Source: an uncultured virus (IMG/VR IMGVR_UViG_3300034777_000432) (Duplodnaviria > Heunggongvirae > Uroviricota > Caudoviricetes). From it: a DNA stretch of 64,000 nucleotides. Numbering within the stretch: position 1 is the first letter of the stretch; every line of letters begins with the position of its first letter. A program made the translations under genes and the position numbers. Positions 2,589-50,898 of this stretch are shown here, piece by piece. The notes below the pieces were generated by a model that saw only the letters and a list, made by a program, of their open reading frames with translations, ran no database searches and was not told the DNA's origin. Where the stretch lies: the IMG/VR virus record IMGVR_UViG_3300034777_000432; one strand, written 5' to 3'.

Positions 2589-2696
2589 ATGCAAGACATC
2601 ATAACAGCCAATATTTTATTTTGGATCTTTTGGTCCTTTATTTCTTATTTGCCATATATGTGGTTTCAAACGCAAATAGACTCTATTGAAGATTAG
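2589..2696 (+). CDS. Small membrane peptide (35 aa)
   Basis: MQDIITANILFWIFWSFISYLPYMWF; GAGG RBS; promoter TTGACA-N17-TAGTAT at 2540-2568. Confidence 0.45.
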   Translation: MQDIITANILFWIFWSFISYLPYMWFQTQIDSIED

Positions 2697-2772
2697 CGCC
2701 CGTAGCTCAGCCGGATAGAGCAGCGGTCTTCTAAACCGCAGGTCAGAGGTTCGAATCCTCTCGGGCGCGCCA
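2696..2772 (+). tRNA. tRNA-Arg (anticodon TCT)
   Basis: Acceptor GCGCCCG/CGGGCGC, anticodon arm GCGGT-CTTCTAA-ACCGC, GGTTCGAATCC T-arm, encoded CCA. Confidence 0.95.
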
Positions 2773-3407: not shown

Positions 3408-3492
3408 GCTCTCGTGGTGGAATTGGTATACACAACAGACTTAAAATCTGTCGCTTCACGGCTTACCGGTTCGAGTCCGGTCGAGAGTACCA
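3408..3492 (+). tRNA. tRNA-Leu (anticodon TAA)
   Basis: GCTCTCG/CGAGAGT acceptor, ACAGA-CTTAAAA-TCTGT anticodon arm, long variable arm, GGTTCGAGTCC, CCA. Confidence 0.95.
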
Positions 3493-5595: not shown

Positions 5596-5624
5596 TTGAC
5601 ATTTGCTCTTAAATGATGTATAAT
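5596..5624 (+). promoter_or_regulatory. Sigma70-type early promoter
   Basis: TTGACA-N17-TATAAT, AATTAACAG upstream. Confidence 0.85.
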
Positions 5625-5650
5625 GTATCTAACAAATAGAGGAATACGTA

Positions 5651-5812
5651 ATGATAATAACAGCAGTAATTATTGGAATGGTTGCAGGAATCATAGCTGG
5701 TTCATTTTTCTGGGAGCCTAAAACTCCTGAAGCAGAACTTGGATGCACAGCCTGTGGACTTGTTGGTGTTATAGCAAGTGTAACTTTATTTAGTTTAATA
5801 GGATTAATTTAA
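5651..5812 (+). CDS. Small two-TM membrane protein (53 aa)
   Basis: GAGG RBS, two hydrophobic segments, sits behind its own promoter. Confidence 0.55.
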   Translation: MIITAVIIGMVAGIIAGSFFWEPKTPEAELGCTACGLVGVIASVTLFSLIGLI

Positions 5813-5820
5813 AAAAACAG

Positions 5821-5849
5821 TTGACATTTACTGAAAACTGTTATATAAT
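5821..5849 (+). promoter_or_regulatory. Sigma70-type promoter driving the ncRNA
   Basis: TTGACA-N17-TATAAT; predicted +1 near 5856. Confidence 0.85.
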
Positions 5850-5855
5850 AGTTCT

Positions 5856-6039
5856 ATATTAAGTTAATGGTGGGATAAACCGAGACGGCGAGAAGTTGTT
5901 CTTACGTTTGAAAAACAACGTATCATAACGTAACTTTTAGGACCCACGATGGAGAACTGCCTTAGGGAGCAACACCTGAACTACCGACATACTGCGTAGG
6001 AACGGAACGCCAAATAAGCGACCACCATTAATTTAATAT
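5856..6039 (+). ncRNA. 184-nt ncRNA with 18-bp terminal stem (6S-like candidate)
   Basis: 5856-5873 ATATTAAGTTAATGGTGG pairs with 6022-6039 CCACCATTAATTTAATAT (one G-U); begins at predicted TSS; followed by a T-run; no long ORF. Confidence 0.65.
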
Positions 6040-6060
6040 CTTTTTGGTTATGACTTGAGA

Positions 6061-6279
6061 ATGAAATATATGAAGTGGTTAGCTACAGCATTATTCTTAT
6101 CTGCAGGTACCTTACTATCTCTTAACATTGAGATATCCCGTTTTGGGTTTTTGTTGTTTTTATCCGGACACGTCTTATTAAGTGTATACTTTTATAAGGA
6201 AAAGGATTGGGCAATGACTACTCAAAACGGGTTTTTTATCTTTGTAGATGCGTTAGGTATATATCGGTGGTTCTATTAA
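6061..6279 (+). CDS. Small multi-TM membrane protein
   Basis: Three hydrophobic helices, GIYRW C-terminus. Confidence 0.6.
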   Translation: MKYMKWLATALFLSAGTLLSLNIEISRFGFLLFLSGHVLLSVYFYKEKDWAMTTQNGFFIFVDALGIYRWFY

Positions 6280-12749: not shown

Positions 12750-12778
12750 TTGACATTTGCTGCAGAATGTTATATAAT
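12750..12778 (+). promoter_or_regulatory. Sigma70-type early promoter
   Basis: TTGACA-N17-TATAAT, AATTAACAG upstream. Confidence 0.85.
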
Positions 12779-17886: not shown

Positions 17887-18972
17887 ATGTGGAACAAAAG
17901 CTATGACCTTAGGTCACTAGTATTAGATGTTGAGTTAACTTCTTATTGTAATTTAAGATGCCCTCAATGTTCAAGAACAGATGAACATAATAACCTTGAA
18001 AAGAAATCTTGGTTGCCTCTTCATTCTGTATCTATAGATCAGTTTAAAAACTGGTTCCCTCCAAAAGTAATATGTACACTTAAACAAATACATTTCTCAG
18101 GAACGTATGGCGATCCTGGCATGTGCAAAGACTTAGCTCAAATAATAGATTATATTATTGACGAAGGTACTTGTAAAATATCTATTAATACAAATGGTTC
18201 TATGCGAGACTCAGATTATTGGTGGGATATTGCTGCAAAAGGTCAACGACGATTAAAGATCATTCTTGATATCGATGGTATTAATCAGGAAATGCATGGA
18301 TTCTATAGACGTGGTTCTGATTTAGAAAAAGTATTAAATGTTGTAGAGGCTATTAGCACTACACCTGCTGAGGTAAGTGTTCTTACTGTTATATTTAAAC
18401 ATAACGAAGATTACCTTGAACAAATACGTGATATGGTTAGAGATCGGGCTCATAAAGATATAACCTTTGATGAGGTTGAAGGTAATAATTTTCAAGGTGG
18501 ACCAATATATAAGTTTAAAGACGAAGATGGTAATGAACAACAATTAGAACAAGTAACTCGTAAAGATAGAGAACAAGGACTTGAACGAGAATCAAGACGA
18601 GTAAGAGACCATCGTCATATTGAAATCGTAGAACTATATAATAAAATAGATTGTCTAGCAGCAAATCAGCAAAATCTTAAAATACAATCGTCTGGTCAAG
18701 TAACACCATGTTGTTATATGTCAACTCCATTAGAAACAGCTTCATTATTTAAACCCGATAGTTTTAATCGAATGATTACTACGTACGGTGGTAAAGACGA
18801 AGATATTAATCCAGTTGCACAAGAGTTTATCGACAATCCTGATTTATTTAATTTAGATCATACACCTTTATTAGATATTATTAATGGTGAATGGTTTACT
18901 AAAACATTACCAGACTCTTGGCAAACAAAAAGTCCTTGCTTCGCATGCTCTAAAGTGTGTGGCGTAGTATGA
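17887..18972 (+). CDS. Radical SAM enzyme with SPASM/twitch domain
   Basis: CNLRCPQC, GTYGDP, NTNG, GQVTPCC, C-terminal CxxCxxxC. Confidence 0.9.
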   Translation: MWNKSYDLRSLVLDVELTSYCNLRCPQCSRTDEHNNLEKKSWLPLHSVSIDQFKNWFPPKVICTLKQIHFSGTYGDPGMCKDLAQIIDYIIDEGTCKISINTNGSMRDSDYWWDIAAKGQRRLKIILDIDGINQEMHGFYRRGSDLEKVLNVVEAISTTPAEVSVLTVIFKHNEDYLEQIRDMVRDRAHKDITFDEVEGNNFQGGPIYKFKDEDGNEQQLEQVTRKDREQGLERESRRVRDHRHIEIVELYNKIDCLAANQQNLKIQSSGQVTPCCYMSTPLETASLFKPDSFNRMITTYGGKDEDINPVAQEFIDNPDLFNLDHTPLLDIINGEWFTKTLPDSWQTKSPCFACSKVCGVV

Positions 18973-20093
18973 AGTGGGATTCAAATCAACTTAATGTATT
19001 TCTTGATATATCTACATATTGTAACGCAGGCTGTCCACAATGTCATAGAACTAATTCAAATGGACTTGGTAAAGAAGATTGGTTACCATTAATACAATGG
19101 TCTGTTGAAGAATTTAAAACTGCGTTTCCACCCGAAGTATTAGAAAATATTCATAGATTTAAATTCTGTGGTACTTGGGGTGATCCAATTATGAATAAAG
19201 ATATATTAGAGATTTTTGAATATATATCAAACCAAGGACCTTTATGTTTAATATCTGTAGATACAAACGGTAGTATTCGCGATGAAGATTTTTGGTGGAA
19301 GTTAGGTTGTATGTTTGGTACAAAACTTGCAGTAGTATTTGCTATCGATGGAATTGATCAAAAAATGCATGAAAGATATCGAAGGTTTACTGATCTCGAT
19401 AAAGTACTTGACAATATGCATACACTTGCGCAAACAGATGCTATGGTACAATCACAAACAATTCTTTTTCAACATAACGAAGATTATAAAGATGAGATAC
19501 TTAAGTTGGTAAAAGAATATGGTTCTAAAAAACACGAGTTTGTTATTTCTGATAGATTTCATAGTGGTAATACTCAACATTTTGTAGATGACAATGGTGA
19601 CGACTTTACTTTAACAAGAGCAAATTCCAAGTCATTACCAAAGGGTGTTATATCAGGAGCGTTTAAACGAGAAATAGAAACTATTCCAGTTAAAACAGTT
19701 AATGAACCGGTTCCAGCAGAAAAAGTTAAAGTTGTAATGAAACCACAAAAAACATTAGAGCATAATATTAAATGTAGGTGGGCTTTACCAAGAAACGAAG
19801 TCGTAGTAAATCCAGATGGTCAAGTTCTTCCTTGCTGTTTTCATGCTAATCATTACTATGGAAACTGGGCAAAGAATATTATTAAAGAAGATCCTACATA
19901 TAAGTATTACATTGAAAATAAAAATGAGTTTAATGTTTTTAAAACATCTATTATTGATATAATGAACTCTAAACATTTTACAAAAACACTACCTGAAAGT
20001 ATAAAGGGAGATAATCCAAATTGGTCCTGCATTAAAAACTGCAGCAACAGAATTAAATCCGAACATCAACTGAGAGAGCGACATGAAACCTGA
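18969..20093 (+). CDS. Radical SAM enzyme with SPASM/twitch domain (paralog)
   Basis: CNAGCPQC, GTWGDP, DTNG, GQVLPCC, CIKNC. Confidence 0.9.
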   Translation: MKWDSNQLNVFLDISTYCNAGCPQCHRTNSNGLGKEDWLPLIQWSVEEFKTAFPPEVLENIHRFKFCGTWGDPIMNKDILEIFEYISNQGPLCLISVDTNGSIRDEDFWWKLGCMFGTKLAVVFAIDGIDQKMHERYRRFTDLDKVLDNMHTLAQTDAMVQSQTILFQHNEDYKDEILKLVKEYGSKKHEFVISDRFHSGNTQHFVDDNGDDFTLTRANSKSLPKGVISGAFKREIETIPVKTVNEPVPAEKVKVVMKPQKTLEHNIKCRWALPRNEVVVNPDGQVLPCCFHANHYYGNWAKNIIKEDPTYKYYIENKNEFNVFKTSIIDIMNSKHFTKTLPESIKGDNPNWSCIKNCSNRIKSEHQLRERHET

Positions 20094-20679
20094 TAATATT
20101 ATTTTTGTAAAGCATGGTAAAAAATACGATGCTGAATATGTGAATAGACTAAGAGATAAGTTAATGCCTTATTATCCAACGGCTCAATACTTATGTTATA
20201 CCGACGATCCTATTGGAGTTGAAATAGAATGCATTCCTTGTTTTGAGAAACCAACATTAAAGTATTGGTGGAATAAACTTGCAATGTTTAGTAAAGACTT
20301 TCCTGTTGAAGGTAAATGCTTATACTTTGATTTAGATATGGATATTGAAGATGACTTTACTGATTTTATTAAATGGGATGGATTAACTGTACTCGATGCA
20401 TATTGGAAAACTGGTATGTATATGGCTCCACACGCATATGATGTACAAATCAATAGTTCAATTATTACTTGGACCGCCGGTGAACAGGATTATGTGTGGG
20501 ATAAGTTTATGTCGAATAAAGATTACTATATGAGAAAATATGCTGGTATAGATCGATTCTTAAAGCATGAAGATATTAAATTTAATACATTTGAAACTGG
20601 TATTGTTGATAGTGTTGCGAATCCTGCTGATTTTAAAGCACCGGTTAAAATGTTTAATGGAATTCAATATGAGTTATAA
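20083..20679 (+). CDS. GT-A (GT8-like) glycosyltransferase
   Basis: KHGKKY, CYTDD, WWNKL, YFDLD (DxD), INSS. Confidence 0.7.
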   Translation: MKPDNIIFVKHGKKYDAEYVNRLRDKLMPYYPTAQYLCYTDDPIGVEIECIPCFEKPTLKYWWNKLAMFSKDFPVEGKCLYFDLDMDIEDDFTDFIKWDGLTVLDAYWKTGMYMAPHAYDVQINSSIITWTAGEQDYVWDKFMSNKDYYMRKYAGIDRFLKHEDIKFNTFETGIVDSVANPADFKAPVKMFNGIQYEL

Positions 20680-21310
20680 AGAACAACTATATAAAAATGC
20701 GTTAAAGGAAATACAAAGGATCTATAAAGAATCTCAGTATAATCCTGCCGTAGATTTGTATCGTAGTTTTGATATAATTAATTCAGTAAATGATAATCAA
20801 ATAGCAAGTAAAGAATGGCTTGCAGATAAAATCATTCCTTACATAGAAAAATCAGATCATAAAAGAGTTTGTTTACTCGGTGGTTGGTATGGTGTATTAG
20901 GAATCATTCTTAAAACAAAATATCCTGACGCAGAATTAGCCTCAGTGGATTCAGATGAAGAATGTATTAATATTGGTAAAAAACTATCAACAGGTATTTG
21001 TAAGCTTAATTTTAAACATGAAGATGCATTGGATTATATGCTTGATATCGATGGTAAGCATGATATAATCATTAATACAAGTTGTGAACATATGGAAAAG
21101 AACGATATTATATTAATGAATAATCTCAAAGGAAAGCATACCATTGTATGTTTACAATCTAATAATTATCATTCAATACAAAGTCATATTAATACATACG
21201 ATAGTCTTAATGAGTTTGTTGAATCATTAAAGCTATCTGAAATATTTTATAAAGAAGAAATGGAAGCTCCTGGCGGAGAATATAATAGATATATGGTAAT
21301 TGGTCGATGA
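20669..21310 (+). CDS. Class I SAM-dependent methyltransferase
   Basis: LLGGWYG motif I, SVDSD, INTSCEH, RYMVIG. Confidence 0.75.
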   Translation: MSYKEQLYKNALKEIQRIYKESQYNPAVDLYRSFDIINSVNDNQIASKEWLADKIIPYIEKSDHKRVCLLGGWYGVLGIILKTKYPDAELASVDSDEECINIGKKLSTGICKLNFKHEDALDYMLDIDGKHDIIINTSCEHMEKNDIILMNNLKGKHTIVCLQSNNYHSIQSHINTYDSLNEFVESLKLSEIFYKEEMEAPGGEYNRYMVIGR

Positions 21311-23031
21311 AAAGAATTATTTTTACAGTATATGATGACTTAAACGAGGTCGATGATACTCATGATCTTGGCACGCCAGCAGTAAAACTTGTTGATGAAT
21401 ATTTCGATAAGCTTTTGCAAAACAAAAAAGATTATGCTGAATCAATTGGAGTTGATTTTAAGTTTTATCATAACACTATGAAAGATTTTGATTGTGATAT
21501 ATCATTAGAGTTTACAAAGGTTAATTTATATAAGCATCATATAATGTGTAAATTAGCAGAAGAATACGATGAAGTTCTATATGTTGATATGGATGTTGTA
21601 TTGAACACAAAAGAAAATATGTTTGATGAACACGATTTAGAAAAGAATGGTTACCATATTAAATATCAAGATGATCATGTTCAAAGCACACAAGTAAAAG
21701 AAGTATTATTTAATGAAATCGGATTAAGATCTCCTACTTTAAAATATCATATTACAAAAGCAATGCTTGGTGGAGAAGATAACGAAGATATACATGTAAT
21801 GAATACTGGTATTATGCTTGCAAATTCTAAATGGATACAGAAATTAGACTTTATTAATAATATGCAAGTTGCTTTAAATAGATTAGAAGAAATCAAAAGA
21901 AAAGCAATAAAGGAAAACGAACAATCATATATTACTCTGCATTTTTATCCTAATAACGAAGCTTTGTTTGCGTGGATGGTTTTAGAATACGATATACCGT
22001 TTTATAATTTAGATGATGAATGGCATTGTATAGTTGACCACTTTCCAAAACAATATAATTTTAATGATATGAAAGCAATTCATTTTATTAATAAAAAATT
22101 TAATTCGTTTTTTAAAGATAAAACTTATGCAATGTTTTCTATACATGTTGATATACCTGACGATAAACTCGATAATCCACGAGGCCATTTTAATGCGACA
22201 GTATCTAAGTCTAAGCATGTTAAAGATCAACTAGCAAAATATAAAGACGCGTTAATTGATAATCATAAACAACAGGCAGATGCTATAAATGCAACATATA
22301 TTCATTATGGTAGAGATGAACAATATGAAGAGTTTTACAAAAGGTTTCCTGATTTATCAGAATACGATGTAATCAATTTATATAAAATATGGCTTCTTGA
22401 TAAACTCACAAAAGAATACGACGGTGTATTGTACGTAGATTTAGATTGTTATTTTACAAAGATAGGTATTTCTATATTTGATTATGTTCCTTGGGAAGTG
22501 GCATTCTGTTGTAATTATAGTACTCCCCAAGATTTGTATATAAACAGAACCGGAAATTACTTTGAATCATATCGTTATGACTTCCGAAGTCCACATGCAA
22601 AATATTGGAACACACATGCTCTTTTAGCTGAAGATGAAATAGATCCTGTATGCGATGTTTATAATACTGGAGTTATGGTTGCAAGTCGAAAAGTAATGGA
22701 TAAACTTAATTACTTTTCTGATATAGATAAAGTATTATCTGTTATGAAAGAACTTAAAGAAGATGAGTATTCAATGTATCCACCTCAAATAAGAAAATCG
22801 TTTGGATATGATAATGAGACAATCACTTCTTATAAAGTTATTAAGAATAATGTGTTCTCATTTAGATTAAACGAGGATTGGCATTTTAAGCATAACGAAA
22901 ACTATCCTGAGTCTTATATTAAAGACACAACTACATATATTCGTGAAAAGGCAAAAATAGCCGATCAGTTAAACAAAAGACAAATCATACACTTTATTTC
23001 TAAGAACTTCTCGTTGGTTTTCGATAAATAG
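21307..23031 (+). CDS. Tandem two-domain GT-A glycosyltransferase
   Basis: Internal duplication: NLYK/YVDMD/NTGIM/NNE/WH/HF and NLYK/YVDLD/NTGVM/DNE/WH/HF. Confidence 0.75.
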   Translation: MKRIIFTVYDDLNEVDDTHDLGTPAVKLVDEYFDKLLQNKKDYAESIGVDFKFYHNTMKDFDCDISLEFTKVNLYKHHIMCKLAEEYDEVLYVDMDVVLNTKENMFDEHDLEKNGYHIKYQDDHVQSTQVKEVLFNEIGLRSPTLKYHITKAMLGGEDNEDIHVMNTGIMLANSKWIQKLDFINNMQVALNRLEEIKRKAIKENEQSYITLHFYPNNEALFAWMVLEYDIPFYNLDDEWHCIVDHFPKQYNFNDMKAIHFINKKFNSFFKDKTYAMFSIHVDIPDDKLDNPRGHFNATVSKSKHVKDQLAKYKDALIDNHKQQADAINATYIHYGRDEQYEEFYKRFPDLSEYDVINLYKIWLLDKLTKEYDGVLYVDLDCYFTKIGISIFDYVPWEVAFCCNYSTPQDLYINRTGNYFESYRYDFRSPHAKYWNTHALLAEDEIDPVCDVYNTGVMVASRKVMDKLNYFSDIDKVLSVMKELKEDEYSMYPPQIRKSFGYDNETITSYKVIKNNVFSFRLNEDWHFKHNENYPESYIKDTTTYIREKAKIADQLNKRQIIHFISKNFSLVFDK

Positions 23032-23062
23032 TAATGTAACCGCTGATTAAGGTATTTGTATT

Positions 23063-23620
23063 ATGACTCTATTATATTTTTATATGTTCTATTGGATCGT
23101 ATCCTTTCTAGGATTCACGATAGGATTTCATCGCGTAGTATCCCACAAATCTATAAACCTACATCCCGTTTTAGAGGCATTTGTTCTCTATGTTGGAGTA
23201 GTTGCTAGTGCGCTATCGCCGTTGGGTTGGGCAGGAATGCATCGTATGCACCATGCTTATGCTGACACACCAAAGGATCCTCATAGTCCGAAATATATGA
23301 AATGGTATTCAATACTCTTTTCGGCTTATAGAGTAAAAACTATTCCACGAAAGTTTGTACGAGATTTATATAAGAATCCAAGAGTAATGTTCTTTCACAA
23401 ATATAAATGGAATGTTTTATTTTCTACCTATGCAGTTACATTATTAATTAATCCATTGATTACTTTATGGCTTGTACTTCTTTTACCAACATCATTTATA
23501 TTCTTTGGTCTTATTAATGTAACAGGCCACGACTCAAACGGTAACCCAGTAAATAGATGGTGGATAAATCTATTTGCGCCATTTGAAGGGAATCATACTA
23601 AACATCATGAACCGAAATAG
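23063..23620 (+). CDS. Membrane fatty-acid desaturase (delta-9-like)
   Basis: His boxes HRVVSH, HRMHH, HTKHH; DPHSP; TM helices. Confidence 0.88.
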   Translation: MTLLYFYMFYWIVSFLGFTIGFHRVVSHKSINLHPVLEAFVLYVGVVASALSPLGWAGMHRMHHAYADTPKDPHSPKYMKWYSILFSAYRVKTIPRKFVRDLYKNPRVMFFHKYKWNVLFSTYAVTLLINPLITLWLVLLLPTSFIFFGLINVTGHDSNGNPVNRWWINLFAPFEGNHTKHHEPK

Positions 23621-24176
23621 CGATACTCGTTGGGTAAAGATGAATTTTGATGTACCTTGCGATAAAATAGAAAAAGAATACGAATCAGTAAAAGAATCAT
23701 TAGTTATTCATAGACCAGAAGATGGCCATAAGGATTGGTGTGCTATGACTTTATATGGTACAGGATCTGATAATACAAATAGTCATTGGGAATACGGTCG
23801 TAAATCTAAAAAGGATGTTACTGAAATAGGTTTACAATGTCCTGCAACTATGGAATTTGTACAGTCATTACCATATGCTCGTATTGATGACGTAAGATAT
23901 TTAGTTATTAAAGCCGGTGGTTATATTGCAGAACATGTCGATGTACCAGAACATAATTGGCTTGATCCTCTTAATATATCGATTACATATCCAGAAGGTT
24001 CAAGATTTGTACACGACGGAGAAGAAATACCTTATCATCCCGGTGGCGCATTTGTTTTAAATATACATTATGCTCATTCAGTACAAAATGAATCAGACAA
24101 AGATAGATTACATTTATTAATTCACGGCAAAAAGAAAAAAGAGTTTTGGAATTATGTTGAGAAACTCAAACTGTAA
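23607..24176 (+). CDS. 2OG-Fe(II) oxygenase, Asp/Asn beta-hydroxylase-like
   Basis: IAEHVD...HSVQN...DRLHL. Confidence 0.8.
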   Translation: MNRNSDTRWVKMNFDVPCDKIEKEYESVKESLVIHRPEDGHKDWCAMTLYGTGSDNTNSHWEYGRKSKKDVTEIGLQCPATMEFVQSLPYARIDDVRYLVIKAGGYIAEHVDVPEHNWLDPLNISITYPEGSRFVHDGEEIPYHPGGAFVLNIHYAHSVQNESDKDRLHLLIHGKKKKEFWNYVEKLKL

Positions 24177-24651
24177 AGTCATTACGTTCTTACCAGAAGA
24201 TCGTCCTGATATTCTAAGACGTTTACACGGTGCTGAATATAATCATATAAACTATGATACTATATCTTGGTTTGATTTTGATTGCATATCGATATTACAA
24301 GATGGCGATGATATAGTTGGGTTTAGTTCTATATGGCATAGAGAAGAACATTATGAAGAAGGTGAAGTAAGAATATTAAATCGTTATTGGGAAGATGATG
24401 TTTTAAGAAGAGGTGGAAGAGAATTAGCTCGAGCTCATATACTTACTATGGTATCTGAACAATTAAAGTTTGCAAAAGAACTCGGATATACTAAAGCGTT
24501 TATAAGTCGAGAAAAGAACCCTCGAGTTTTTAAAGAACTAATAAATAAAATTGCCAAAGGTACAAATACTGAATGGCATATACATGATAAGAGAGTACCC
24601 GTCTGTGAAGGAGATGGTTGCTTACAATTTAAAGGATATACCGAATTATGA
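24154..24651 (+). CDS. GNAT-fold acyltransferase-like protein
   Basis: IVGFS, RILNRY, AKELGYTKAFISRE. Confidence 0.5.
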   Translation: MLRNSNCKVITFLPEDRPDILRRLHGAEYNHINYDTISWFDFDCISILQDGDDIVGFSSIWHREEHYEEGEVRILNRYWEDDVLRRGGRELARAHILTMVSEQLKFAKELGYTKAFISREKNPRVFKELINKIAKGTNTEWHIHDKRVPVCEGDGCLQFKGYTEL

Positions 24652-25451
24652 AAACTCGTTATGAATTACCACCATTCTTAAAATTAGATATGCAATTTGA
24701 TGTCGCGAAGATTATTGAAGACGTGAGAAACATGCCACCTGAAACTGATGACTTAAAACAAAAGGATGGTTATGGAGATTTAGTTGGCGGTAAAACTGCA
24801 AAGCTACAAAAAGCATTTGGTTTAAAGTTTGATACAATCGAAGATGCGTATCAATTCCTACAAGATAATGATGTAAAAGAATCTGAGTTTAGAAAAGGCT
24901 TGGGTGGTAAGCGTATGGCTTGGGACTTTAGAAATTATGTAAAACCGTTCGAAGATTATATTGTTAAAGATGGTAAAGGTAAATTTGAAGTTAATGGATC
25001 GCCTTATAAACAAATTGCTTTAACTAAATATAATCCTGCCGAAGAAGATCGCATATATGATAAAAAGATTCCTAAGAGTAGGCTTGATGAACGTCATTAT
25101 AATCTCGTAAAAGATTGGGTCAAAGGTACTTATTTAGAAGAAATCCTTAAACAATTTAAAGGTGAAGTTACCCGTGCACGGATTGCTATTATGGATCCTG
25201 GCGCGTTTGTTGCAGAACATATCGATTATAATACTGATTATTCAATTCGTTTCCATATTCCTATTACAACAAATGATGATTGTGGATTCTATTGTGTTAA
25301 TCAAGAAGGTGAAAAGGTATATCAAACAATGGAACCTGGATCTTGTTGGTTTTTAAATCAAGGTATGAGACACTCTGCTTGGAATAAAGGAACTACTACA
25401 AGATCTCATATTATCATATCTGTTAATGGACAGGATGATTTAGATGTTTAA
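24648..25451 (+). CDS. 2OG-Fe(II) oxygenase, Asp/Asn- or proline-hydroxylase-like
   Basis: RARI...EHID...RFHIPI...HSAWN...RSH. Confidence 0.8.
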   Translation: MKTRYELPPFLKLDMQFDVAKIIEDVRNMPPETDDLKQKDGYGDLVGGKTAKLQKAFGLKFDTIEDAYQFLQDNDVKESEFRKGLGGKRMAWDFRNYVKPFEDYIVKDGKGKFEVNGSPYKQIALTKYNPAEEDRIYDKKIPKSRLDERHYNLVKDWVKGTYLEEILKQFKGEVTRARIAIMDPGAFVAEHIDYNTDYSIRFHIPITTNDDCGFYCVNQEGEKVYQTMEPGSCWFLNQGMRHSAWNKGTTTRSHIIISVNGQDDLDV

Positions 25452-25953
25452 AGAATGGCGCAATGATTCATTTATAGTAACAGATTTTAAAGTCGATCCT
25501 GAATTTTGGACTCCATATTTTACCGGTGAATGGCAAGACAGTAATCAATTATATTCAGAATATGTAAGTGATGCCACCGGCGGTAAAGAAATGAATAAGT
25601 TTTTTGTTCAAGAGATTCATAATTTTGATCGACCACTCTTAAAGTTAATTAAAAAGATATGGAATGAATTTGGTATTAGACCAAGAGAGTTTCGTTGTAA
25701 CTTTTTTAGAGTATTAGAAGGTGGTGAGCTGCCTGTACATGTTGATGTAAAAAGCGAATGCTCAGTATTAATACCAGTAACAGAGAATACAGGCGAGTTA
25801 TATGTAGAATCCGGGGCTCATCGGGATTCAATTGTATATGATTCACTTACAGTTTTAAACACAAAGAAACCGCATGGTGTACAATCACCAACAAAGGAAA
25901 GGATAGTTTTTCATATGGGCATCCACGATACTAAATTCGGAGACTTAAGATGA
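25444..25953 (+). CDS. 2OG-Fe(II) oxygenase
   Basis: LPVHVD...LNTKKPHGV...ERI. Confidence 0.7.
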   Translation: MFKEWRNDSFIVTDFKVDPEFWTPYFTGEWQDSNQLYSEYVSDATGGKEMNKFFVQEIHNFDRPLLKLIKKIWNEFGIRPREFRCNFFRVLEGGELPVHVDVKSECSVLIPVTENTGELYVESGAHRDSIVYDSLTVLNTKKPHGVQSPTKERIVFHMGIHDTKFGDLR

Positions 25954-26411
25954 TTAACAGATTAAATTTACCAGCACTAACATTACCATCACCTGCTCAT
26001 AATGCATTAGAAATTGAATACGATAGTTCAATTATTAATTATACAGCTTGGAATGTTACAGACGAAACAGCTACTTTAGTGGCTAATAATGTATTACAAG
26101 AAATTTTAGATAACGCTCAATTGCGATATCAAGAATCAGATAATACTAAAAACGACAGAATTTTTACAACAGAATCACGTTGGAGAATTCTATATATGAT
26201 TGATCCGGCAGGTACAGTATTGCATGCACATGATGCAGACGATAACATCACATCTTCTATTACAGCAGTAGCAGGAGAATGGTACCTTATTGATTCACAC
26301 GTTAAAAATTCTAATTCTGGAATTACCGGTACACAAACTGCTTTAACAATCAATCATAGCGCTGATTTCAATAGTACGGAGCAGGCTTGGATAGATGGCA
26401 AAATACTTTAA
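25950..26411 (+). CDS. Degenerate double-stranded beta-helix protein (probable inactive oxygenase paralog)
   Basis: LYMID.AG and WYLIDS layout, but no HxD or distal H ligands. Confidence 0.4.
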   Translation: MINRLNLPALTLPSPAHNALEIEYDSSIINYTAWNVTDETATLVANNVLQEILDNAQLRYQESDNTKNDRIFTTESRWRILYMIDPAGTVLHAHDADDNITSSITAVAGEWYLIDSHVKNSNSGITGTQTALTINHSADFNSTEQAWIDGKIL

Positions 26412-26997
26412 ATATGATGTAAGAAAATACTTTGAGCAATATGTTGATTTTGAAAATAAATCAGTATTAGACTTTGGTTGCAATCACGGTAACTTTGTAA
26501 GGTATCAGTCTCACCACGATTATACTGGTGTTGATATTAATAAAGCTATTATAGAACAAAACAAAGAACAATATCCTGGCTGCGAATGGATTCATTATGA
26601 TGGATACAATAAAATGTATAATCCCAATGGTACAGAAGAATTCGTACTTGATAGGGATTATGATGTAGGTGTGCTGTTTTCAGTTATTACTCATATGGAA
26701 AAAGATGAAGCAATAGAGACTATACAAAAATTAAAAGAACGTTGTAAAACATTATATGTTACATTCTATTCTCATACAAATCATCAAGCTTTAACTAACA
26801 TATGTCGATATCGAAAATTAGGAATGCCTAATTGGAGCAAAATAACAGAATCAGATGTATATTACTTTAAACCCGAAGAATACCTTTGGTCTTTTTACGA
26901 TGATGACTTTGCCGCAAAAACATTTGGTGGTAAAGTATATGATACAATCTTTAGTCCTAGAACATTAATGGGAATGCAAAAATGTTTAATAATATAA
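26395..26997 (+). CDS. Class I SAM-dependent methyltransferase
   Basis: VLDFGCNHG, YTGVDI, FSVITH. Confidence 0.85.
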   Translation: MAKYFKYDVRKYFEQYVDFENKSVLDFGCNHGNFVRYQSHHDYTGVDINKAIIEQNKEQYPGCEWIHYDGYNKMYNPNGTEEFVLDRDYDVGVLFSVITHMEKDEAIETIQKLKERCKTLYVTFYSHTNHQALTNICRYRKLGMPNWSKITESDVYYFKPEEYLWSFYDDDFAAKTFGGKVYDTIFSPRTLMGMQKCLII

Positions 26998-27446
26998 GTC
27001 ATTATAATCTTCCAAACTTTTTAACGCATCATCAGCATGCGCATTTCTTAATTGTTGCAAAGAACTTACATGAAGATCATTGGACTCCATATAAAACGTC
27101 TTCTGGTAGACCGGACGGATTCTCATATTATGATTTAAAAACTACTTTTATTGGTAAGAACGTTTACCTTCTTAAAATGAATCCTCATAGTCGTATTGAT
27201 TGGCATACCGATAGCAGTAAAAGAACTATAGCATTAACCTATCCATTATCAGAACAGTATGCGCCATGCCAATTTGAAAATAATGAATCAACATCTAAGC
27301 CGGCTTTCTTAAATACTCAACAACGACATGCAGTATTTAATAACGCTCAAACAAGATATAGCCTAAACATATCATTCGAAGAGAATATGGATGATTGTAT
27401 AGCATTATTCGAAAGCTTGAACGAATATGAATTTAAAACACCTTAA
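26982..27446 (+). CDS. 2OG-Fe(II) oxygenase
   Basis: WHTD...LNTQQRHAV...RYSL. Confidence 0.7.
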   Translation: MFNNISHYNLPNFLTHHQHAHFLIVAKNLHEDHWTPYKTSSGRPDGFSYYDLKTTFIGKNVYLLKMNPHSRIDWHTDSSKRTIALTYPLSEQYAPCQFENNESTSKPAFLNTQQRHAVFNNAQTRYSLNISFEENMDDCIALFESLNEYEFKTP

Positions 27447-27909
27447 CTTTAAAATAGATAAACCTCGCTTTAGAAAAATAGCTGAAAAGTGGAGAAGCTC
27501 TGGTAGGTATTACCAATGGAAACAATTCGATCAAGAAGATAAATGGTTCCAAACATATCCACCTCAAGGAGAAGATGACGCAATATCTGAAGTAGAACAC
27601 ATGCTTGGTATTCATATATTTCAGAATAAGCCTCGTTTCTATTGGCTTAAACCAAACTCTAATCTTCCAATTCATTTTGATGAAGATAATGTAACATCAA
27701 TACAAATTAATCTAATGGATCAAACACCTGAAATAGGAATCGAAGGCGTGGGTAATGTTCCATATGAAGCAATGATAATAAATAACGGATATATAAGACA
27801 CTGGGTGGATCCAGTACCTTATGAACGTTTACAATTAAAATTTGTAATGCGTGAATCATACGAGCAAATAATGAGGGTAATACCTAATGCCATATTACAG
27901 GACAGATAG
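27427..27909 (+). CDS. 2OG-Fe(II) oxygenase
   Basis: LPIHFD...RHWV...ERL. Confidence 0.7.
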   Translation: MNLKHLNFKIDKPRFRKIAEKWRSSGRYYQWKQFDQEDKWFQTYPPQGEDDAISEVEHMLGIHIFQNKPRFYWLKPNSNLPIHFDEDNVTSIQINLMDQTPEIGIEGVGNVPYEAMIINNGYIRHWVDPVPYERLQLKFVMRESYEQIMRVIPNAILQDR

Positions 27910-28759
27910 ACCATTTGCCGATCGTAAACTTCGAAATATGGATATTATTCATAATCCAAATACAACATTGTTTCAAGATCAATACGAGTCGTCATATTGT
28001 ATTCCAGACTTTATAACAGATAAAGAACGATTAGAACTGCTTGAAGTTTGGAACTATAGATTTGATACGATAGGTGAGATCATAAACGATCATATTTACC
28101 GTATTCCATATCCAATGCTTATTAAAGAAATATCTGATATTGTAAGGCCAAAAATCTATGAACATTTTGGAGATGATATAGTATTCTATTCAGATATAGC
28201 TGGTAATGATCCTATGAGTGTTGGAGATCAAATGTTTAAAGCTATACAACCGTATGGATTACACACCGACTCAGTAACTCACCTTGATGGATACAGACCA
28301 TATAAGGATATTATCATACCATTGCTTATAGATGGCCCAGGAACATATGTTACATTCAACCAAAGGTATCGTGGACATGCCACTATGTTTATGAATGGAA
28401 GAGATATAACCTCATATGCCAACTATCATAATATAGTCAAAATACAGTCGTATAAAGACTATGGTGTAGAAAATATAGATGAAACAAATCCAGATCAAGA
28501 TAGACTCGAAATGCTTATGCCTAAACATATACCTTTGTCTGTATATGATGGTCTTTCTATTGAAGCAATATTATTATGGCAACATTGTAATGCCATTGTA
28601 CAAGACACTTCAGTGCTTCATGCACCGACAGGATTCGCAGGAAGTAAGATAGGATTAACCCTACATCTTATGAAACGTGACGAGAGCTATAGAAATAGCA
28701 TCTCTGGCCACTATACTCCGTGGTCTCCACACACAAAACCAATAAAAAAATTAAAATAA
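27887..28759 (+). CDS. 2OG-Fe(II) oxygenase-like protein
   Basis: GLHTD...IIPL...DTSVLH...K. Confidence 0.6.
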   Translation: MPYYRTDRPFADRKLRNMDIIHNPNTTLFQDQYESSYCIPDFITDKERLELLEVWNYRFDTIGEIINDHIYRIPYPMLIKEISDIVRPKIYEHFGDDIVFYSDIAGNDPMSVGDQMFKAIQPYGLHTDSVTHLDGYRPYKDIIIPLLIDGPGTYVTFNQRYRGHATMFMNGRDITSYANYHNIVKIQSYKDYGVENIDETNPDQDRLEMLMPKHIPLSVYDGLSIEAILLWQHCNAIVQDTSVLHAPTGFAGSKIGLTLHLMKRDESYRNSISGHYTPWSPHTKPIKKLK

Positions 28760-28815: not shown

Positions 28816-28844
28816 TTGACATTTGCTTTAAGATGATGTATAAT
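28816..28844 (+). promoter_or_regulatory. Sigma70-type early promoter
   Basis: TTGACA-N17-TATAAT. Confidence 0.85.
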
Positions 28845-31946: not shown

Positions 31947-32273
31947 ATGAAATTTGATACTGGCAAACCACCAATTAATCTTGTACCGTCTGAAGCTATT
32001 ATTGCTGCAGCCGAAGTATTTGCATTTGGTGCAGTCAAATATGGCGAAAACAATTGGCGTAAAGATGTTAACAAGTTTCCATTGTCTCGTCATTACGCGT
32101 CTTTATCACGCCATCTCTTGGCTTGGAATGCAGGTGAAGATATCGATCCTGAATCTGGCCTACCACACACGCATCATGCTCTTACTCAGTTGATGATTCT
32201 TATAATGACTCAACGCGAGGCTACTGAGGACATAGATGATAGATTTAACAAAGAAACCGATTACAATAAATGA
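31947..32273 (+). CDS. DUF5664-type dNTP diphosphohydrolase (all-alpha)
   Basis: KFDTGKP, FGAVKYGENNWRK, IDPESGLPH..HA. Confidence 0.85.
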   Translation: MKFDTGKPPINLVPSEAIIAAAEVFAFGAVKYGENNWRKDVNKFPLSRHYASLSRHLLAWNAGEDIDPESGLPHTHHALTQLMILIMTQREATEDIDDRFNKETDYNK

Positions 32274-32276
32274 TTT

Positions 32277-32411
32277 ATGATTATAAAAATTGAAATTCAG
32301 ATCGACACTGAAAATAGAAATGATGTCGAAAAAATGCAAGAACTCTACAGAATTGTAGAAGACCTAGAACAAAGTTCAAATGAAGGATACCAATATGACG
32401 ATGAAAGTTAG
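32277..32411 (+). CDS. Small acidic hypothetical protein (44 aa)
   Basis: MIIKIEIQIDTEN... fills the gap in the operon. Confidence 0.4.
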   Translation: MIIKIEIQIDTENRNDVEKMQELYRIVEDLEQSSNEGYQYDDES

Positions 32412-33108
32412 TGACGTACGTGAATATTTCAAAAGCGAATTAGCTGCTGAAAGATTTACTACTGATAAAACTGGTGCTAAAACTATTGAGATGCTTGGTG
32501 CATCTTTTATTGCTGACGAAGAATCAATCTTCGGTAAGCCTGCTCCAAAGTATATTCAAGCTGAATTAGATTGGTATGAAAGCCAATCAACGAATATTAA
32601 TGATATTCACGGTGATGAAAAAGAACCACCACAAGCTTGGCAATACTCAGCAAATGATGCTGGCGAAATCAATTCAAACTATGGCCATATCGTATATTCC
32701 GATAAGTATTTCAATCAATTTAATAAAGCCTTTGCTGAACTATGGCGTAATCCTGATAGCCGTCGCGCTCAAATGGTTTACAATCGTCCAAGCATATGGG
32801 TTGAATTCAACGAAAACGGCAAGTCAGATTTTATCTGTACTAATGCTCAAACGTTCTATATTCGTGACAATAAGTTACATATGGTATCTCAAATGCGATC
32901 AAACGATGTAGTCTTTGGCTACAAAAATGATTATGCGTGGGCTCAATATCTTATGGATAAGTTTGTTACTGAATGGAATAATGCTGCTAATGAATTTAAC
33001 GTAAGTACAACTGTGCCTGATCCTATTCAAACTATTACTAAAGGCGATCTTATCTGGCAAGTAATGAACTTACACGTCTATGACCGTCACTTCAACTTGG
33101 TAGATTAA
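32380..33108 (+). CDS. 42: dCMP hydroxymethyltransferase (T4 gp42 homolog)
   Basis: DKTGAKTIE.LGASF.ADE, GEINSNYG, NPDSRR, SDFICTN, MRSNDVVFG.KNDYAW, LHVY.RHF.LVD match T4 gp42 as recalled, including the cytosine-specifying Asp. Confidence 0.9.
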   Translation: MKDTNMTMKVSDVREYFKSELAAERFTTDKTGAKTIEMLGASFIADEESIFGKPAPKYIQAELDWYESQSTNINDIHGDEKEPPQAWQYSANDAGEINSNYGHIVYSDKYFNQFNKAFAELWRNPDSRRAQMVYNRPSIWVEFNENGKSDFICTNAQTFYIRDNKLHMVSQMRSNDVVFGYKNDYAWAQYLMDKFVTEWNNAANEFNVSTTVPDPIQTITKGDLIWQVMNLHVYDRHFNLVD

Positions 33109-33109
33109 A

Positions 33110-33667
33110 ATGAGTAAAATGGGCGCATATGTTCTTGATCAACAAATCGAAGAATACGAATCGTACCACAATTATATGGGAAGAAGAATGAGAGAAGCAG
33201 ATCGTTACGAGTACGACAGAGATCAAAAATGGCATAATCGTTTTATGGATATGGCTTTGCTTATAGCCGACTGGAGCAAAGATCCATCAAGTAAAATTGG
33301 TGCAGTTGCTGTTAATGATGAACGTCGTATTCTTGCTACAGGTTACAATGGCTTTCCAAAGGGTATTGAAGATACTCCTGAACGTTTAGCCAATCGTCCT
33401 GAAAAGCATCAATTAGTTATCCATGCTGAAATGAATGCACTTATGAATGCGTTGTACTCAGGCGTAAGCCTTAAAGGTGCAACTATGTATGTGTATGGAT
33501 TACCTATTTGTCCTGATTGCGCTAAATGTGTAATACAAGCTGGTGTTAAACATGTTGTTATACCAACTGATAAGACCGACAAAGGCGAATGGCAAAAGGT
33601 ATGGGAAGAAAAAAGTTTACCAATGTTCAAAGAAAGTGGTGTTAAAGTTACAGTACTCGGTATGTAA
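33110..33667 (+). CDS. cd: dCMP deaminase
   Basis: [24 protein letters not shown]. Confidence 0.92.
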
Positions 33668-33669
33668 TT

Positions 33670-34005
33670 ATGTCGTATCTTGTAACTGACAACTGTGTTA
33701 AATGTAAACACACCACATGCGTATCAGTTTGTCCTGTAGATTGTTTCTACGAAGGAGATGATATGTTAGTAATCAATCCAGATGAATGTATCGATTGTGG
33801 AGTCTGCGTACCTGAATGTCCTGTTGATGCTATTGTAGCAGACGTTGATTTACCAGAACCAGAAAGAATCATTTGGATGGAAAGAAATGCTAAATATAGT
33901 CAGATATGGCCGAACATTGATGAAGAAAAAGCACCTAAAGAAGATGCTTATGAGTGGGAAAATATTCCACATAAATTTGAAACACACATCGAAAAAGTTT
34001 CATAA
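33670..34005 (+). CDS. fdxA: 7Fe ferredoxin (FdxA-type)
   Basis: [21 protein letters not shown] and [17 protein letters not shown]. Confidence 0.92.
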
Positions 34006-34038
34006 ATACAATCGTCCGGAAAACATTAAAGTTTTTTG

Positions 34039-34067
34039 TTGACATTTTTTGAAAACCGTGTTATAGT
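34039..34067 (+). promoter_or_regulatory. Sigma70-type promoter for ino1 operon
   Basis: TTGACA-N17-TATAGT. Confidence 0.7.
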
Positions 34068-34153
34068 ATATCTATACACAAAGTATATAATAGTGAGCTA
34101 CTCTGATCCAGTCAAAAAACTCACGTTAATAAACTGATATAAAGGAGACTAAT

Positions 34154-35449: not shown

Positions 35450-35900
35450 AAGAAACGCATTTGCTGAACATGATAAACCACCATCAAAATTAATTAATTC
35501 TTACGATATTGATGGTGTAATCTTTATGGGTGATAAGTTTACTGGTGTAAACCCTGGCCCTGATGATATTATCATTACTGGTAGATCTAAAGATGATCGC
35601 GCAGAAACTGAATCGATGCTCCTTTCGAGGGGCATCACTAATCCTCTTTATATGAACAATAAGCCTGGAGATTTTAATGATCGTAGGCAGTCAGGTTTAC
35701 ATAAAGGTATGACTTTGTTCTACTTAGAGCAAATGGGATATCGAATTGGATGTCACTTTGAAGATGATCCAATTCAAATCGAGGCGATTGAACAAATGAT
35801 GCCACATATAAACGTCGTACACCTTAAGCATGATTTAGTTGATAAAGGTGTTGACACTCACGAAAATGTAGTTTATAATCAAACTATTCCATCATACTAA
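35442..35900 (+). CDS. HAD-family phosphatase (candidate inositol-phosphate phosphatase)
   Basis: YDIDGV motif I, ITGR motif II, K, FEDD motif IV; overlaps ino1 stop. Confidence 0.75.
   Translation: MSKRNAFAEHDKPPSKLINSYDIDGVIFMGDKFTGVNPGPDDIIITGRSKDDRAETESMLLSRGITNPLYMNNKPGDFNDRRQSGLHKGMTLFYLEQMGYRIGCHFEDDPIQIEAIEQMMPHINVVHLKHDLVDKGVDTHENVVYNQTIPSY
35851..35879 (+). promoter_or_regulatory. Sigma70-type promoter for the three DNA-modifying genes
   Basis: Perfect TTGACA-N17-TATAAT at the end of the HAD gene. Confidence 0.7.
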
Positions 35901-35910
35901 TAGGTGATAA

Positions 35911-37083: not shown

Positions 37084-37093
37084 GGTAAATATT

Positions 37094-50834: not shown

Positions 50835-50852
50835 CGACACCTCACAATTAGT

Positions 50853-50880
50853 TATAAATAGAAATAATAAATTATTTATA
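50853..50880. promoter_or_regulatory. Face-to-face late promoters for the divergent tail operons
   Basis: TATAAATA on + (50853-50860) and on - (50873-50880). Confidence 0.75.
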
Positions 50881-50898
50881 ATCCAAAGGATAGTACAA

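What the first reader, a model, noticed from the sequence alone, without database searches (positions are those of the whole stretch)
5821..6045. Stand-alone 184-nt phage ncRNA, 6S-RNA-like candidate
Seen: a perfect sigma70 promoter with predicted +1 exactly at the start of an 18-bp stem pairing the 5' and 3' ends, then a T-run. Internal helices include GTTGTTCTT/GGGAGCAAC, ACGTT/AACGT, GGCG/CGCC and CTAC/GTAG. No ORF. Established: 6S RNAs are ~180-190 nt with a long closing stem and sequester sigma70-RNAP. Inference: a phage RNA decoy that could help switch host RNAP to gp55 late transcription. The interior looks more branched than a canonical 6S rod, so identity is uncertain.
Basis: partly seen in the sequence, partly recalled or inferred. 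Interest (0 to 1): 0.75.

Follow-up and report, generated by a model that had tools for sequence, protein, structure and literature searches.

The report
New folded RNA of ocean phages
This stretch of a marine T4-like phage is a small gene for a folded, non-coding RNA of a family that matches no catalogued RNA family; it is not a 6S RNA, and what it does is still unknown.

Summary
A perfect sigma70 promoter (5821-5849) puts +1 at about 5856. That is the first base of an 18-bp stem (5856-5873 / 6022-6039), and a T-run follows the stem.

The 6S reading does not hold. No Rfam family matches, even at E<=10. The fold that covariation supports is branched, not a rod with a central bubble.

The RNA belongs to a conserved family in uncultured marine T4-like (pelagimyophage-type) phages. 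My covariance model scores the window at 94 bits, E 9e-21.

- **Supported helices:** compensatory changes support P1, a variable hairpin P2 and P4. They also support a 4-bp pseudoknot that was not in the model.
- **Modules:** the RNA has two modules. Some relatives keep only module B (92 nt), and one contig carries the modules in swapped order.
- **Link to S21:** in 63 of 74 assessable loci the RNA lies just after the phage ribosomal protein S21 gene. Only 39 of 80 S21 loci carry it, and in this window it sits elsewhere.

Best reading: a stand-alone early RNA that acts in trans by binding a partner, possibly bS21 or the ribosome. The function is untested. This scan noted the same family before on other DNA (e1-5800231).

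The parts
5821..5826 (+). -35 hexamer TTGACA of the RNA's own promoter
   Evidence: 12 of 12 match, 17-nt spacer. 40 of 53 distinct family members have such a promoter 5-14 nt before the model match.
5844..5849 (+). -10 hexamer TATAAT
5856..6039 (+). Predicted 184-nt ncRNA, from the first base of P1 to the last
   Evidence: Model R1 matches 5864-6031 at 94 bits, E 9.3e-21. The transcript ends are inferred, not measured.
5856..5873 (+). P1, 5' arm of the closing stem
   Evidence: Family-wide, the inner 10 bp are 96.6% paired and 8 of 10 pairs change on both sides. A 90-95% relative in RNA-library contigs shows 5866A>G with 6029T>C and 5872G>A with 6023C>T.
6022..6039 (+). P1, 3' arm of the closing stem
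5874..5952 (+). Module A: conserved strands 5874-5890 and 5939-5952 flanking hairpin P2. It is missing in the mini variants L391-L393 and closed by its own stem in L279.
5891..5938 (+). P2, a variable hairpin, long form in this lineage. Relatives carry a 5-bp GNRA-capped hairpin or a different 30-nt hairpin.
   Evidence: The base 5 bp are 96.6% paired and 3 of the 5 pairs change on both sides. GUU/AAC becomes GUC/GAC in L006.
5887..5945 (+). Tentative K-turn-like motif: GGCGA (5887-5891) opposite a 3-nt bulge, then GA and CC (5938-5945), around the base of P2
   Evidence: The pattern is present in 41 of 43 members scored. The K-turn consensus is recalled, and no structural test was made.
5953..5969 (+). 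P3 hairpin. It is weak in this window (C5957-G5966, U5958-G5965). The invariant GGGAG forms its 3' strand.
   Evidence: 70-79% of cells paired family-wide. The L042 group has a fully Watson-Crick version.
5961..5964 (+). Pseudoknot, 5' strand (CUUA in the P3 loop)
   Evidence: Found by a column-pair scan. 4 of 4 pairs change on both sides and 96.2% of cells are paired. It was not part of the model used to align.
6015..6018 (+). Pseudoknot, 3' strand (UAAG), 3 nt before the P1 3' arm
5981..5999 (+). P4 hairpin (CUAC/GUAG) with the conserved loop CGACAUACUGC. Some relatives insert a GNRA-capped extension here.
   Evidence: 4 of 4 pairs change on both sides, 94.5% of cells paired..
6040..6045 (+). 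CTTTTT run after the closing stem, the likely transcript end
   Evidence: A run of 4 or more T lies within 25 nt in 39 of 53 distinct members. The simple terminator scan did not call it.
6067..6279 (+). Downstream 70-aa membrane-like ORF. It is the conserved neighbour of the RNA in this lineage only. No promoter lies between it and the RNA.
   Evidence: 90-100% identity in L002, L006, L056, L058. No Pfam or PHROG family.
5651..5812 (+). Upstream 53-aa hydrophobic ORF with its own perfect promoter at 5596-5624

Best explanation
Shown. Window 5856-6039 is a gene for a structured non-coding RNA. It belongs to a family that is conserved in uncultured marine T4-like (pelagimyophage-type) phages and matches no Rfam family. 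A closing stem P1 encloses two modules. Module A has conserved strands around a variable hairpin P2, possibly forming a K-turn. Module B has hairpin P3, whose loop forms a 4-bp pseudoknot with the strand just before the P1 3' arm, and hairpin P4.

Inferred. The host sigma70 RNA polymerase transcribes the RNA early from a consensus promoter, and the transcript ends at the closing stem plus U-run. The RNA then acts in trans as a folded particle that binds a partner, most likely a protein. The best candidate is the phage-encoded ribosomal protein bS21 or the host 30S subunit, which would make it part of the phage's take-over of translation. I put that specific partner at only about 0.2. It is not a 6S-type RNA polymerase decoy.
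For: **Real RNA gene**
- Fold z -3.87, with 0 of 200 shuffles as good.
- Model R1 found 80 matches in 85 sources, and the window scored 94 bits.
- R1 found 0 matches in 100 unrelated loci that had matched only a short pattern.
- P1, P2 and P4 carry 8, 3 and 4 pairs with changes on both sides. Overall 91% of cells are paired, against 25-52% when partners are slid.
- The pseudoknot was found independently of the model, and 4 of 4 pairs change on both sides.
- G-U pairs fit the + strand only: pair 33-101 is G-U in 35 of 42 sequences.

**Stand-alone unit**
- 40 of 53 distinct members have a consensus promoter ending 5-14 nt before the match, and 39 of 53 have a T-run after it.
- The RNA occurs in at least three gene contexts.
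- In 8 distinct variants (L042, L043, L044, L047, L057, L061, L062, L082) a promoter follows the RNA, before the next gene.
- In L279 the terminal stem is a different one, yet a U-run still follows it.

**Phage-specific:** among G001 and 100 of its relatives, only G001's phage contigs carry the RNA.

**Link to bS21**
- S21 lies directly upstream on the same strand in 63 of 74 assessable loci, and downstream in 1.
- 39 of 80 loci fetched through S21 alone carry the RNA.
- bS21 has been shown to bind a structured ncRNA, OLE, outside the ribosome (PMC12054373: abstract and sections 6 and 7 read).
Against: - No transcript ends or abundance were measured. RNA-library contigs of a 90-95% relative run across both ends of the RNA (X15 5655-6169, X16 5600-6158). 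That fits read-through transcripts or carried-over DNA and does not show a discrete 184-nt species.
- In this window and most relatives, no promoter lies between the U-run and the next ORF 22-42 nt away. That ORF must therefore be read through the RNA, so a leader role is not excluded.
- The S21 link may only be synteny inherited among related phages. 41 of 80 S21 loci lack the RNA, and 10 of 74 RNA loci, this window among them, have no S21 in the flank held.
- No S21 was found in four partial records that I queried for carrying the RNA; one of them, the record of L009, later gave no match to the model.
- No RNA was found in five partial S21 records.
- The RNA shows no similarity to 16S rRNA beyond shuffles.
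- All RNA-anchored loci were retrieved with patterns taken from the family itself, so the counts are biased towards close relatives and include duplicates.
Confidence: 0.5

Rival explanations
1. Cis-acting leader or attenuator, riboswitch-like. The folded RNA is the 5' leader of the downstream ORF. When a ligand or protein stabilises the pseudoknot and P1, the closing stem plus U-run terminates transcription; otherwise the polymerase reads through into the ORF.
For: - The order promoter, structured RNA, stem plus U-run, ribosome-binding site and ATG, with the ORF 22-42 nt away and no promoter in between, holds in the window and most members.
- The pseudoknot's 3' strand lies 3 nt before the P1 3' arm, a geometry that could couple folding to P1 formation.
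- Junction nucleotides are highly conserved.
- RNA-library contigs continue from the RNA into the ORF.
Against: - The downstream genes are unrelated: a 136-aa basic protein of unknown function, a 70-aa membrane ORF, S21, or a 447-aa protein.
- In 8 distinct variants a separate promoter sits between the RNA and the next gene.
- Mini and module-swapped forms exist.
- I recognised no conserved alternative (antiterminator) pairing.
- No Rfam riboswitch family matched.
Confidence: 0.2
2. Anti-defence decoy or sponge. The RNA is made early and in bulk to soak up a host immune protein or a small signalling molecule.
For: - It has a strong early consensus promoter.
- It behaves like a moron: a self-contained unit inserted at different genome positions.
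- It has an aptamer-like conserved core with a pseudoknot and no fixed downstream gene.
Against: There is no direct evidence. I saw no resemblance to a host RNA that could be mimicked: there are no repeats, ARAGORN found no tRNA or tmRNA here, and no Rfam family matched. The host and its defence systems are unknown.
Confidence: 0.12
3. Ribozyme. The conserved core catalyses a reaction, either self-cleavage or processing, or a reaction on another RNA.
For: - About 60 nearly invariant positions, many of them outside the helices.
- A pseudoknot.
- Peripheral GNRA-capped stems that come and go.
- Tolerance of rearranged connectivity between the modules.
Against: No known ribozyme family matched in Rfam. 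No cleavage site or processing product is known. The mini form lacks half of the conserved core.
Confidence: 0.08
4. 6S-like RNA. The RNA mimics an open promoter, sequesters sigma70-RNA polymerase and helps the switch to late transcription.
For: The length is about 184 nt, there is a long closing stem, and expression comes from a sigma70 promoter.
Against: - No match to any Rfam family at E<=10 or at E<=1 in six relatives.
- The covariation-supported fold is branched and pseudoknotted, with no central bubble flanked by long helices.
- Family members range from 92 to about 190 nt, and the closing stem is only 9-11 bp in most.
Confidence: 0.03

Closest known systems
The structured RNA beside phage bS21 noted earlier in this scan (finding e1-5800231, another genome)
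   Same: It is the same family. That stretch shares short words with my relative L059. My model R1, built from such S21-adjacent copies, matches the window at 94 bits. Both analyses found that no catalogued family matches and that most copies have their own promoter and terminator.
   Different: In this window the RNA is not next to S21. It lies after a sugar epimerase and two small ORFs and before a 70-aa membrane ORF. It has a longer closing stem (18 bp) and a long P2.
6S RNA (Rfam 6S and 6S-Flavo families)
   Same: Similar size, a 5'/3' closing stem, and a stand-alone gene with a sigma70 promoter.
   Different: There is no model match. The fold is a branched junction with a pseudoknot rather than a rod with a central bubble. 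The family is found only in phages.
OLE RNA with bS21 (PMC12054373)
   Same: A structured ncRNA tied to ribosomal protein bS21 outside the ribosome. In OLE, bS21 binding is coupled to formation of a K-turn. Here module A carries a K-turn-like sequence pattern, and the gene usually lies next to the phage bS21 gene.
   Different: OLE is about 600 nt, occurs in Bacillota, and its binding was shown biochemically. Here the only evidence is gene adjacency. There is no sequence or model match to OLE, and no duplex mimicking the SD/anti-SD pairing was established.
manA and wcaG RNA motifs (orphan structured RNAs of marine T4-like phages; lead from e1-5800231)
   Same: They are orphan, conserved, structured RNAs carried by marine T4-like phages, of unknown function.
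   Different: Both are Rfam families and neither matched. That they lie upstream of particular gene classes is recalled, not tested here.
T4 stable RNAs C and D, and phi29 packaging RNA (both recalled, not tested beyond Rfam)
   Same: They are phage-encoded small stable RNAs. Circularly permuted phi29 pRNA is said to remain functional (recalled).
   Different: The T4 RNAs sit in the tRNA cluster and are processed from it. Here the RNA is a separate unit 2.4 kb from the tRNAs. Packaging RNA belongs to phi29-like podoviruses, and T4-like packaging needs no RNA (established knowledge). No Rfam family matched.

Membership tests
6S RNA | Match to the 6S or 6S-Flavo covariance models | tested here: not met
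   0 Rfam matches at E<=10 on 5780-6100. 0 at the gathering score in the window apart from 2 tRNAs. 0 at E<=1 in six relatives.
6S RNA | Rod-like fold: closing stem, large central bubble, terminal stem | tested here: not met
   Covariation supports P1 enclosing three hairpins and a pseudoknot. A 92-nt mini form exists.
6S RNA | Length of about 180-200 nt | tested here: met
   184 nt in the window. The family ranges from 92 to about 190 nt.
6S RNA | Binds sigma70 holoenzyme and templates product RNA | not testable with these tools
   Needs a gel shift and an in vitro transcription assay.
Phage RNA family defined here (model R1; same as e1-5800231) | Significant match to the covariance model | tested here: met
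   Window 5864-6031, 94 bits, E 9.3e-21, all 135 model positions. The model found 0 matches in 100 unrelated loci.
Phage RNA family defined here (model R1; same as e1-5800231) | Pseudoknot between the last four nucleotides of the P3 loop and the strand before the P1 3' arm | tested here: met
   Window CUUA 5961-5964 with UAAG 6015-6018. Family-wide, 4 of 4 pairs change on both sides.
Phage RNA family defined here (model R1; same as e1-5800231) | Position directly downstream of the phage S21 gene | tested here: not met
   No S21 match in the 64-kb window by tblastn or Pfam. This feature is typical of the family, not defining: 63 of 74 assessable loci have it.
Riboswitch (generic) | Conserved aptamer upstream of a consistent class of genes, with an expression platform | tested here: not met
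   There are four unrelated downstream genes, and in 8 variants a promoter lies between the RNA and the next gene. No Rfam riboswitch matched. Ligand binding cannot be tested here.
K-turn motif (in module A) | Helix, 3-nt bulge, tandem G-A pairs, second helix (consensus recalled) | tested here: inconclusive
   The sequence pattern fits in 41 of 43 members. The other 2 would have only a 2-bp stem. The G and C positions never vary, so there is no covariation, and no structural test was made.
Known self-cleaving ribozyme classes, OLE, manA, wcaG, tmRNA | Match to the Rfam model, or to ARAGORN for tmRNA | tested here: not met

The most novel reading that the evidence does not exclude
The RNA is the RNA subunit of a particle the phage builds together with its own ribosomal protein bS21. 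This would be an extraribosomal bS21-ncRNA complex, comparable in principle to bS21 on OLE RNA. It would load, store or redirect bS21 and so reprogram host ribosomes towards phage messages. The K-turn-like module A would be the protein-binding arm, and the pseudoknotted module B the functional core.
Probability: 0.15. Interest if true: 0.9.

Novelty: categorically new. Interest (0 to 1): 0.7.

Why it matters
T4-like phages of the abundant streamlined marine bacteria are among the commonest viruses in the sea. A 2020 survey of pelagimyophages reported finding no regulatory RNAs in them with Riboswitch Scanner (PMC7029224, passages read).

This RNA has the marks of RNA classes that later proved to be riboswitches, ribozymes or RNP scaffolds:
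- about 60 near-invariant positions;
- a pseudoknot;
- GNRA-capped stems that can be swapped;
- a two-module build.

It is short enough for direct biochemistry. Its frequent position beside the phage bS21 gene gives a concrete way to test what virus-encoded ribosomal proteins do, which is an open question.

If it proves to be a decoy, sponge or ribozyme instead, it would be a new kind of phage take-over tool. As an RNA family it lies outside all 4227 Rfam families. Whether its function is also new is unknown.

Tried and rejected
- **GenBank phages.** blastn with the window RNA, with 6 kb around it, and with relative L059 gave no match. tblastn with phage S21 hit only unrelated records.
- **Genome contigs pattern scan.** By nhmmer, 0 belong to the family; they are chance hits in G+C-rich genomes.
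- **Metagenome-contig scan.** The model found 0 matches among the 97 of them that I scanned with it, or in L007-L009.
- **Search for more module-swapped copies.** L279 therefore remains a single example.
- **rRNA mimicry.** Local alignment to a 16S rRNA scored no better than shuffles: 39 of 200 shuffles matched or beat it for L018, and 85 of 200 for the window.
- **Expression.** RNA-library contigs from 4 runs of a 90-95% relative cover the locus at low depth, and two of them bridge both ends of the RNA. Contigs cannot show transcript ends or levels, and DNA may be present in such libraries.
- **Genome-level co-occurrence of S21 and the RNA.** No S21 was found in 4 partial records queried as RNA-bearing (18-83% complete; one of them, the record of L009, later gave no match to the model), and L279's record is not held. 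No RNA was found in 5 partial S21 records (22-30% complete). Neither result is informative.
- **GGCG/CGCC helix.** It never covaries, and 8 sequences mismatch there.
- **A helix between the segments flanking P4.** The segments are correlated (CC with GG, UU with C/A-U), but the UU class does not form Watson-Crick pairs.
- **RNAalifold on a MAFFT alignment.** It recovered little beyond P1, P2 and P4.
- **The 136-aa protein downstream of the RNA in most relatives.** It matches a PHROG family of unknown function only, has no Pfam family or PDB relative, and has no clear Atlas neighbour.
- **Literature.** Five text searches found no description of this RNA.

Full report
**1. The observation.**
- Promoter and stem: window 5821-5849 holds TTGACA, a 17-nt spacer and TATAAT, a 12 of 12 match. 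Seven bases after the -10 hexamer, at 5856, an 18-bp stem begins (5856-5873 with 6022-6039, one G-U pair). It encloses 148 nt and is followed by CTTTTT at 6040-6045.
- Fold energy: the + strand folds at -49.7 kcal/mol, against -34.9 +/- 3.8 for shuffles (z -3.87, 0 of 200 as good). The - strand gives z -2.01, with 8 of 200 as good.
- Promoter type: this is the phage's standard early type. The window holds 18 such sites with at most one mismatch, against 1.57 expected. Under the looser definition, promoter-like sites are not enriched (22 found, 18.5 expected).
- Coding: the only ORF inside is a 27-aa minus-strand frame.
- Terminator: the simple terminator scan does not call the 3' end, because the stem's loop is far too long for its rule.

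**2. What the genome is.** The window encodes topoisomerase II, the gp45 clamp, the gp44/62 clamp loader, RegA, and baseplate proteins gp25, gp6 and gp53. It also encodes Hsp20, Cpn10, two Asp/Asn beta-hydroxylases, radical-SAM enzymes and two tRNAs. It is therefore a T4-like phage of the marine pelagimyophage kind; PMC7029224 names S21 and the hydroxylase as core genes of that group (passages read). DNA runs that hold the stretch are seawater metagenomes. The nearest held assembly, G001, carries the identical locus. It also carries a 72% identical copy on a second phage contig.

**3. Relatives.**
- No Rfam family matches. At the gathering score the window gives only two tRNAs. There are 0 matches at E<=10 on 5780-6100 and 0 at E<=1 on six diverse relatives.
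- GenBank phages give no blastn match.
- Pattern scans of IMG/VR contigs with conserved stretches returned 3, 6, 21 and 68 loci. A metagenome scan added 11 family members among 120 loci.
- A genome scan returned only chance hits in G+C-rich genomes: 0 of 119 belong to the family.
- I built a covariance model from 10 clean seeds with helices P1-P4. It found 80 matches in 85 sources, 43 of them distinct sequences. The window scored 94 bits, E 9.3e-21.
- The model found nothing in 100 unrelated loci. Among G001 and 100 of its relatives, only G001's two phage contigs matched.

**4. The fold.**
- On the model alignment, 91% of cells pair, against 25-52% when partners are slid by 1-3 columns. 18 of 24 pairs show changes on both sides.
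- Per helix: P1 has 8 of 10 pairs with changes on both sides, the base of P2 has 3 of 5, and P4 has 4 of 4. P3 is weaker, at 70-79% paired, with a conserved A-G in the middle; one subgroup replaces it with a fully Watson-Crick stem. These counts lean towards the model, because the alignment was fitted to it.
- A scan of all column pairs then found a helix that was not in the model. The last four nucleotides of the P3 loop pair with four nucleotides lying 3 nt before the P1 3' arm. All four pairs change on both sides, one of them with four pair types (GC 19, UA 10, CG 7, AU 3), and 96.2% of cells are paired. In the window this is CUUA 5961-5964 with UAAG 6015-6018.
- A 90-95% relative seen in RNA-library contigs carries two more compensatory double changes in P1: 5866A>G with 6029T>C, and 5872G>A with 6023C>T.
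- P2 is a swappable arm. It is a 48-nt hairpin here, a 5-bp GNRA-capped hairpin in the second G001 phage, and a different 30-nt hairpin elsewhere. P4 takes an optional extension, GNRA-capped in most cases.

**5. Two modules.**
- Three S21-adjacent contigs (L391-L393) carry a 92-nt form that has only P1, P3 with the pseudoknot, and P4. I call this module B.
- The missing part, module A, is the pair of conserved strands around P2. One metagenome contig (L279) has module B first and module A second. Each module can be closed by its own copy of the P1 sequence, and a promoter lies before the pair and a U-run after it. A circularly permuted pairing is formally possible, but the centroid fold favours two stem-closed modules.
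- Around the base of P2, the sequence fits the recalled K-turn pattern (helix, 3-nt bulge, tandem G-A, helix) in 41 of 43 members scored. This is a sequence pattern only.

**6. Context.**
- Among 78 loci with the RNA, 74 hold enough upstream DNA to judge. In 63 of these the phage S21 gene ends 13-69 nt before the RNA on the same strand. In 1 (L279) S21 follows the RNA. In 10 there is no S21 in the flank held: the window's lineage, 6 loci, and a second lineage, 4 loci. S21 identity was confirmed by Pfam and PHROGs.
- These loci include duplicates and were found through the RNA itself. In the reverse test, 39 of the 80 best phage-S21 loci carry the RNA directly downstream. The other 41 have S21 followed at once by uvsX or by the 136-aa protein.
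- G001 holds a phage-type S21 next to uvsX on another contig with no RNA beside it. The window's phage may therefore encode S21 elsewhere, but this is not shown.
- 40 of 53 distinct members have their own consensus promoter. The others follow S21 without one, and 8 of those have a promoter after the RNA instead.

**7. Reading.**
- What is shown is a real, phage-specific, structured RNA gene of a family outside Rfam.
- The rest is inference. A self-contained promoter-to-U-run unit that appears at different genome positions, before unrelated genes, and with a rearranged build argues for a product that works as a folded particle in trans.
- Its frequent position beside bS21 makes bS21 or the ribosome the best candidate partner, and bS21 is known to bind OLE RNA outside the ribosome with a K-turn rearrangement (PMC12054373: abstract and sections 6 and 7 read). 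I put this partner at about 0.2, because the adjacency could be inherited synteny.
- A leader or attenuator role is not excluded, since the next ORF has no promoter of its own here.
- The 6S reading fails two of the three defining features that could be tested.

**8. Novelty.** Five text searches found no description of this RNA. The pelagimyophage survey reported finding no regulatory RNAs with Riboswitch Scanner. This scan had already flagged the same family beside bS21 in another genome (e1-5800231), and my results agree with that note.

Noticed in passing
window 591-44991 (18 sites, e.g. 5596-5624, 12750-12778, 28816-28844): There are 18 near-consensus TTGACA-N17-TATAAT promoters, against 1.57 expected. 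17 are on the + strand, and many share the extended form CAGTTGACATTT. They look like the phage's early promoter set.
   Followed up: partly
window 31947-39402: A cluster that looks like a DNA base-modification module: the dATP/dGTP diphosphohydrolase N-domain, a thymidylate-synthase-like protein, dCMP deaminase, a 5-hmdU DNA kinase-like helical domain and a C5 DNA methylase.
   Followed up: no
window 17887-28756: A run of radical-SAM and SPASM proteins, a fatty-acid desaturase-like protein, two Asp/Asn beta-hydroxylases and a methyltransferase, among proteins with no family. It may be a peptide- or lipid-tailoring cassette.
   Followed up: no
window 50373-50939 (-): A TnsA-like endonuclease N-domain protein sits inside the baseplate gene block.
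   Followed up: no
L279:481-662 (metagenome contig): This variant has the two RNA modules in swapped order, each closable by a copy of the same stem sequence, and it lies upstream of S21 rather than downstream. It is a single example.
   Followed up: partly
L391:1527-1618, L392, L393: A 92-nt mini form of the RNA that lacks module A. It has its own promoter and lies directly after S21.
   Followed up: partly
L342:1423-2753 (G001 contig C47): A phage-type S21 (91 aa) immediately followed by uvsX, on a low-G+C contig of the same assembly that holds the window's phage. The same S21-uvsX order occurs in many of the S21 loci that lack the RNA.
   Followed up: partly
L059:2638-3045 and homologues: A 136-aa basic protein (PHROG 27048, function unknown) is the constant downstream neighbour of S21 or of the RNA in this phage group. 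It has no Pfam family or PDB relative.
   Followed up: partly
window 2696-2772 and 3408-3492: tRNA-Arg(TCT) and tRNA-Leu(TAA) lie 2.4 kb upstream of the RNA gene.
   Followed up: no
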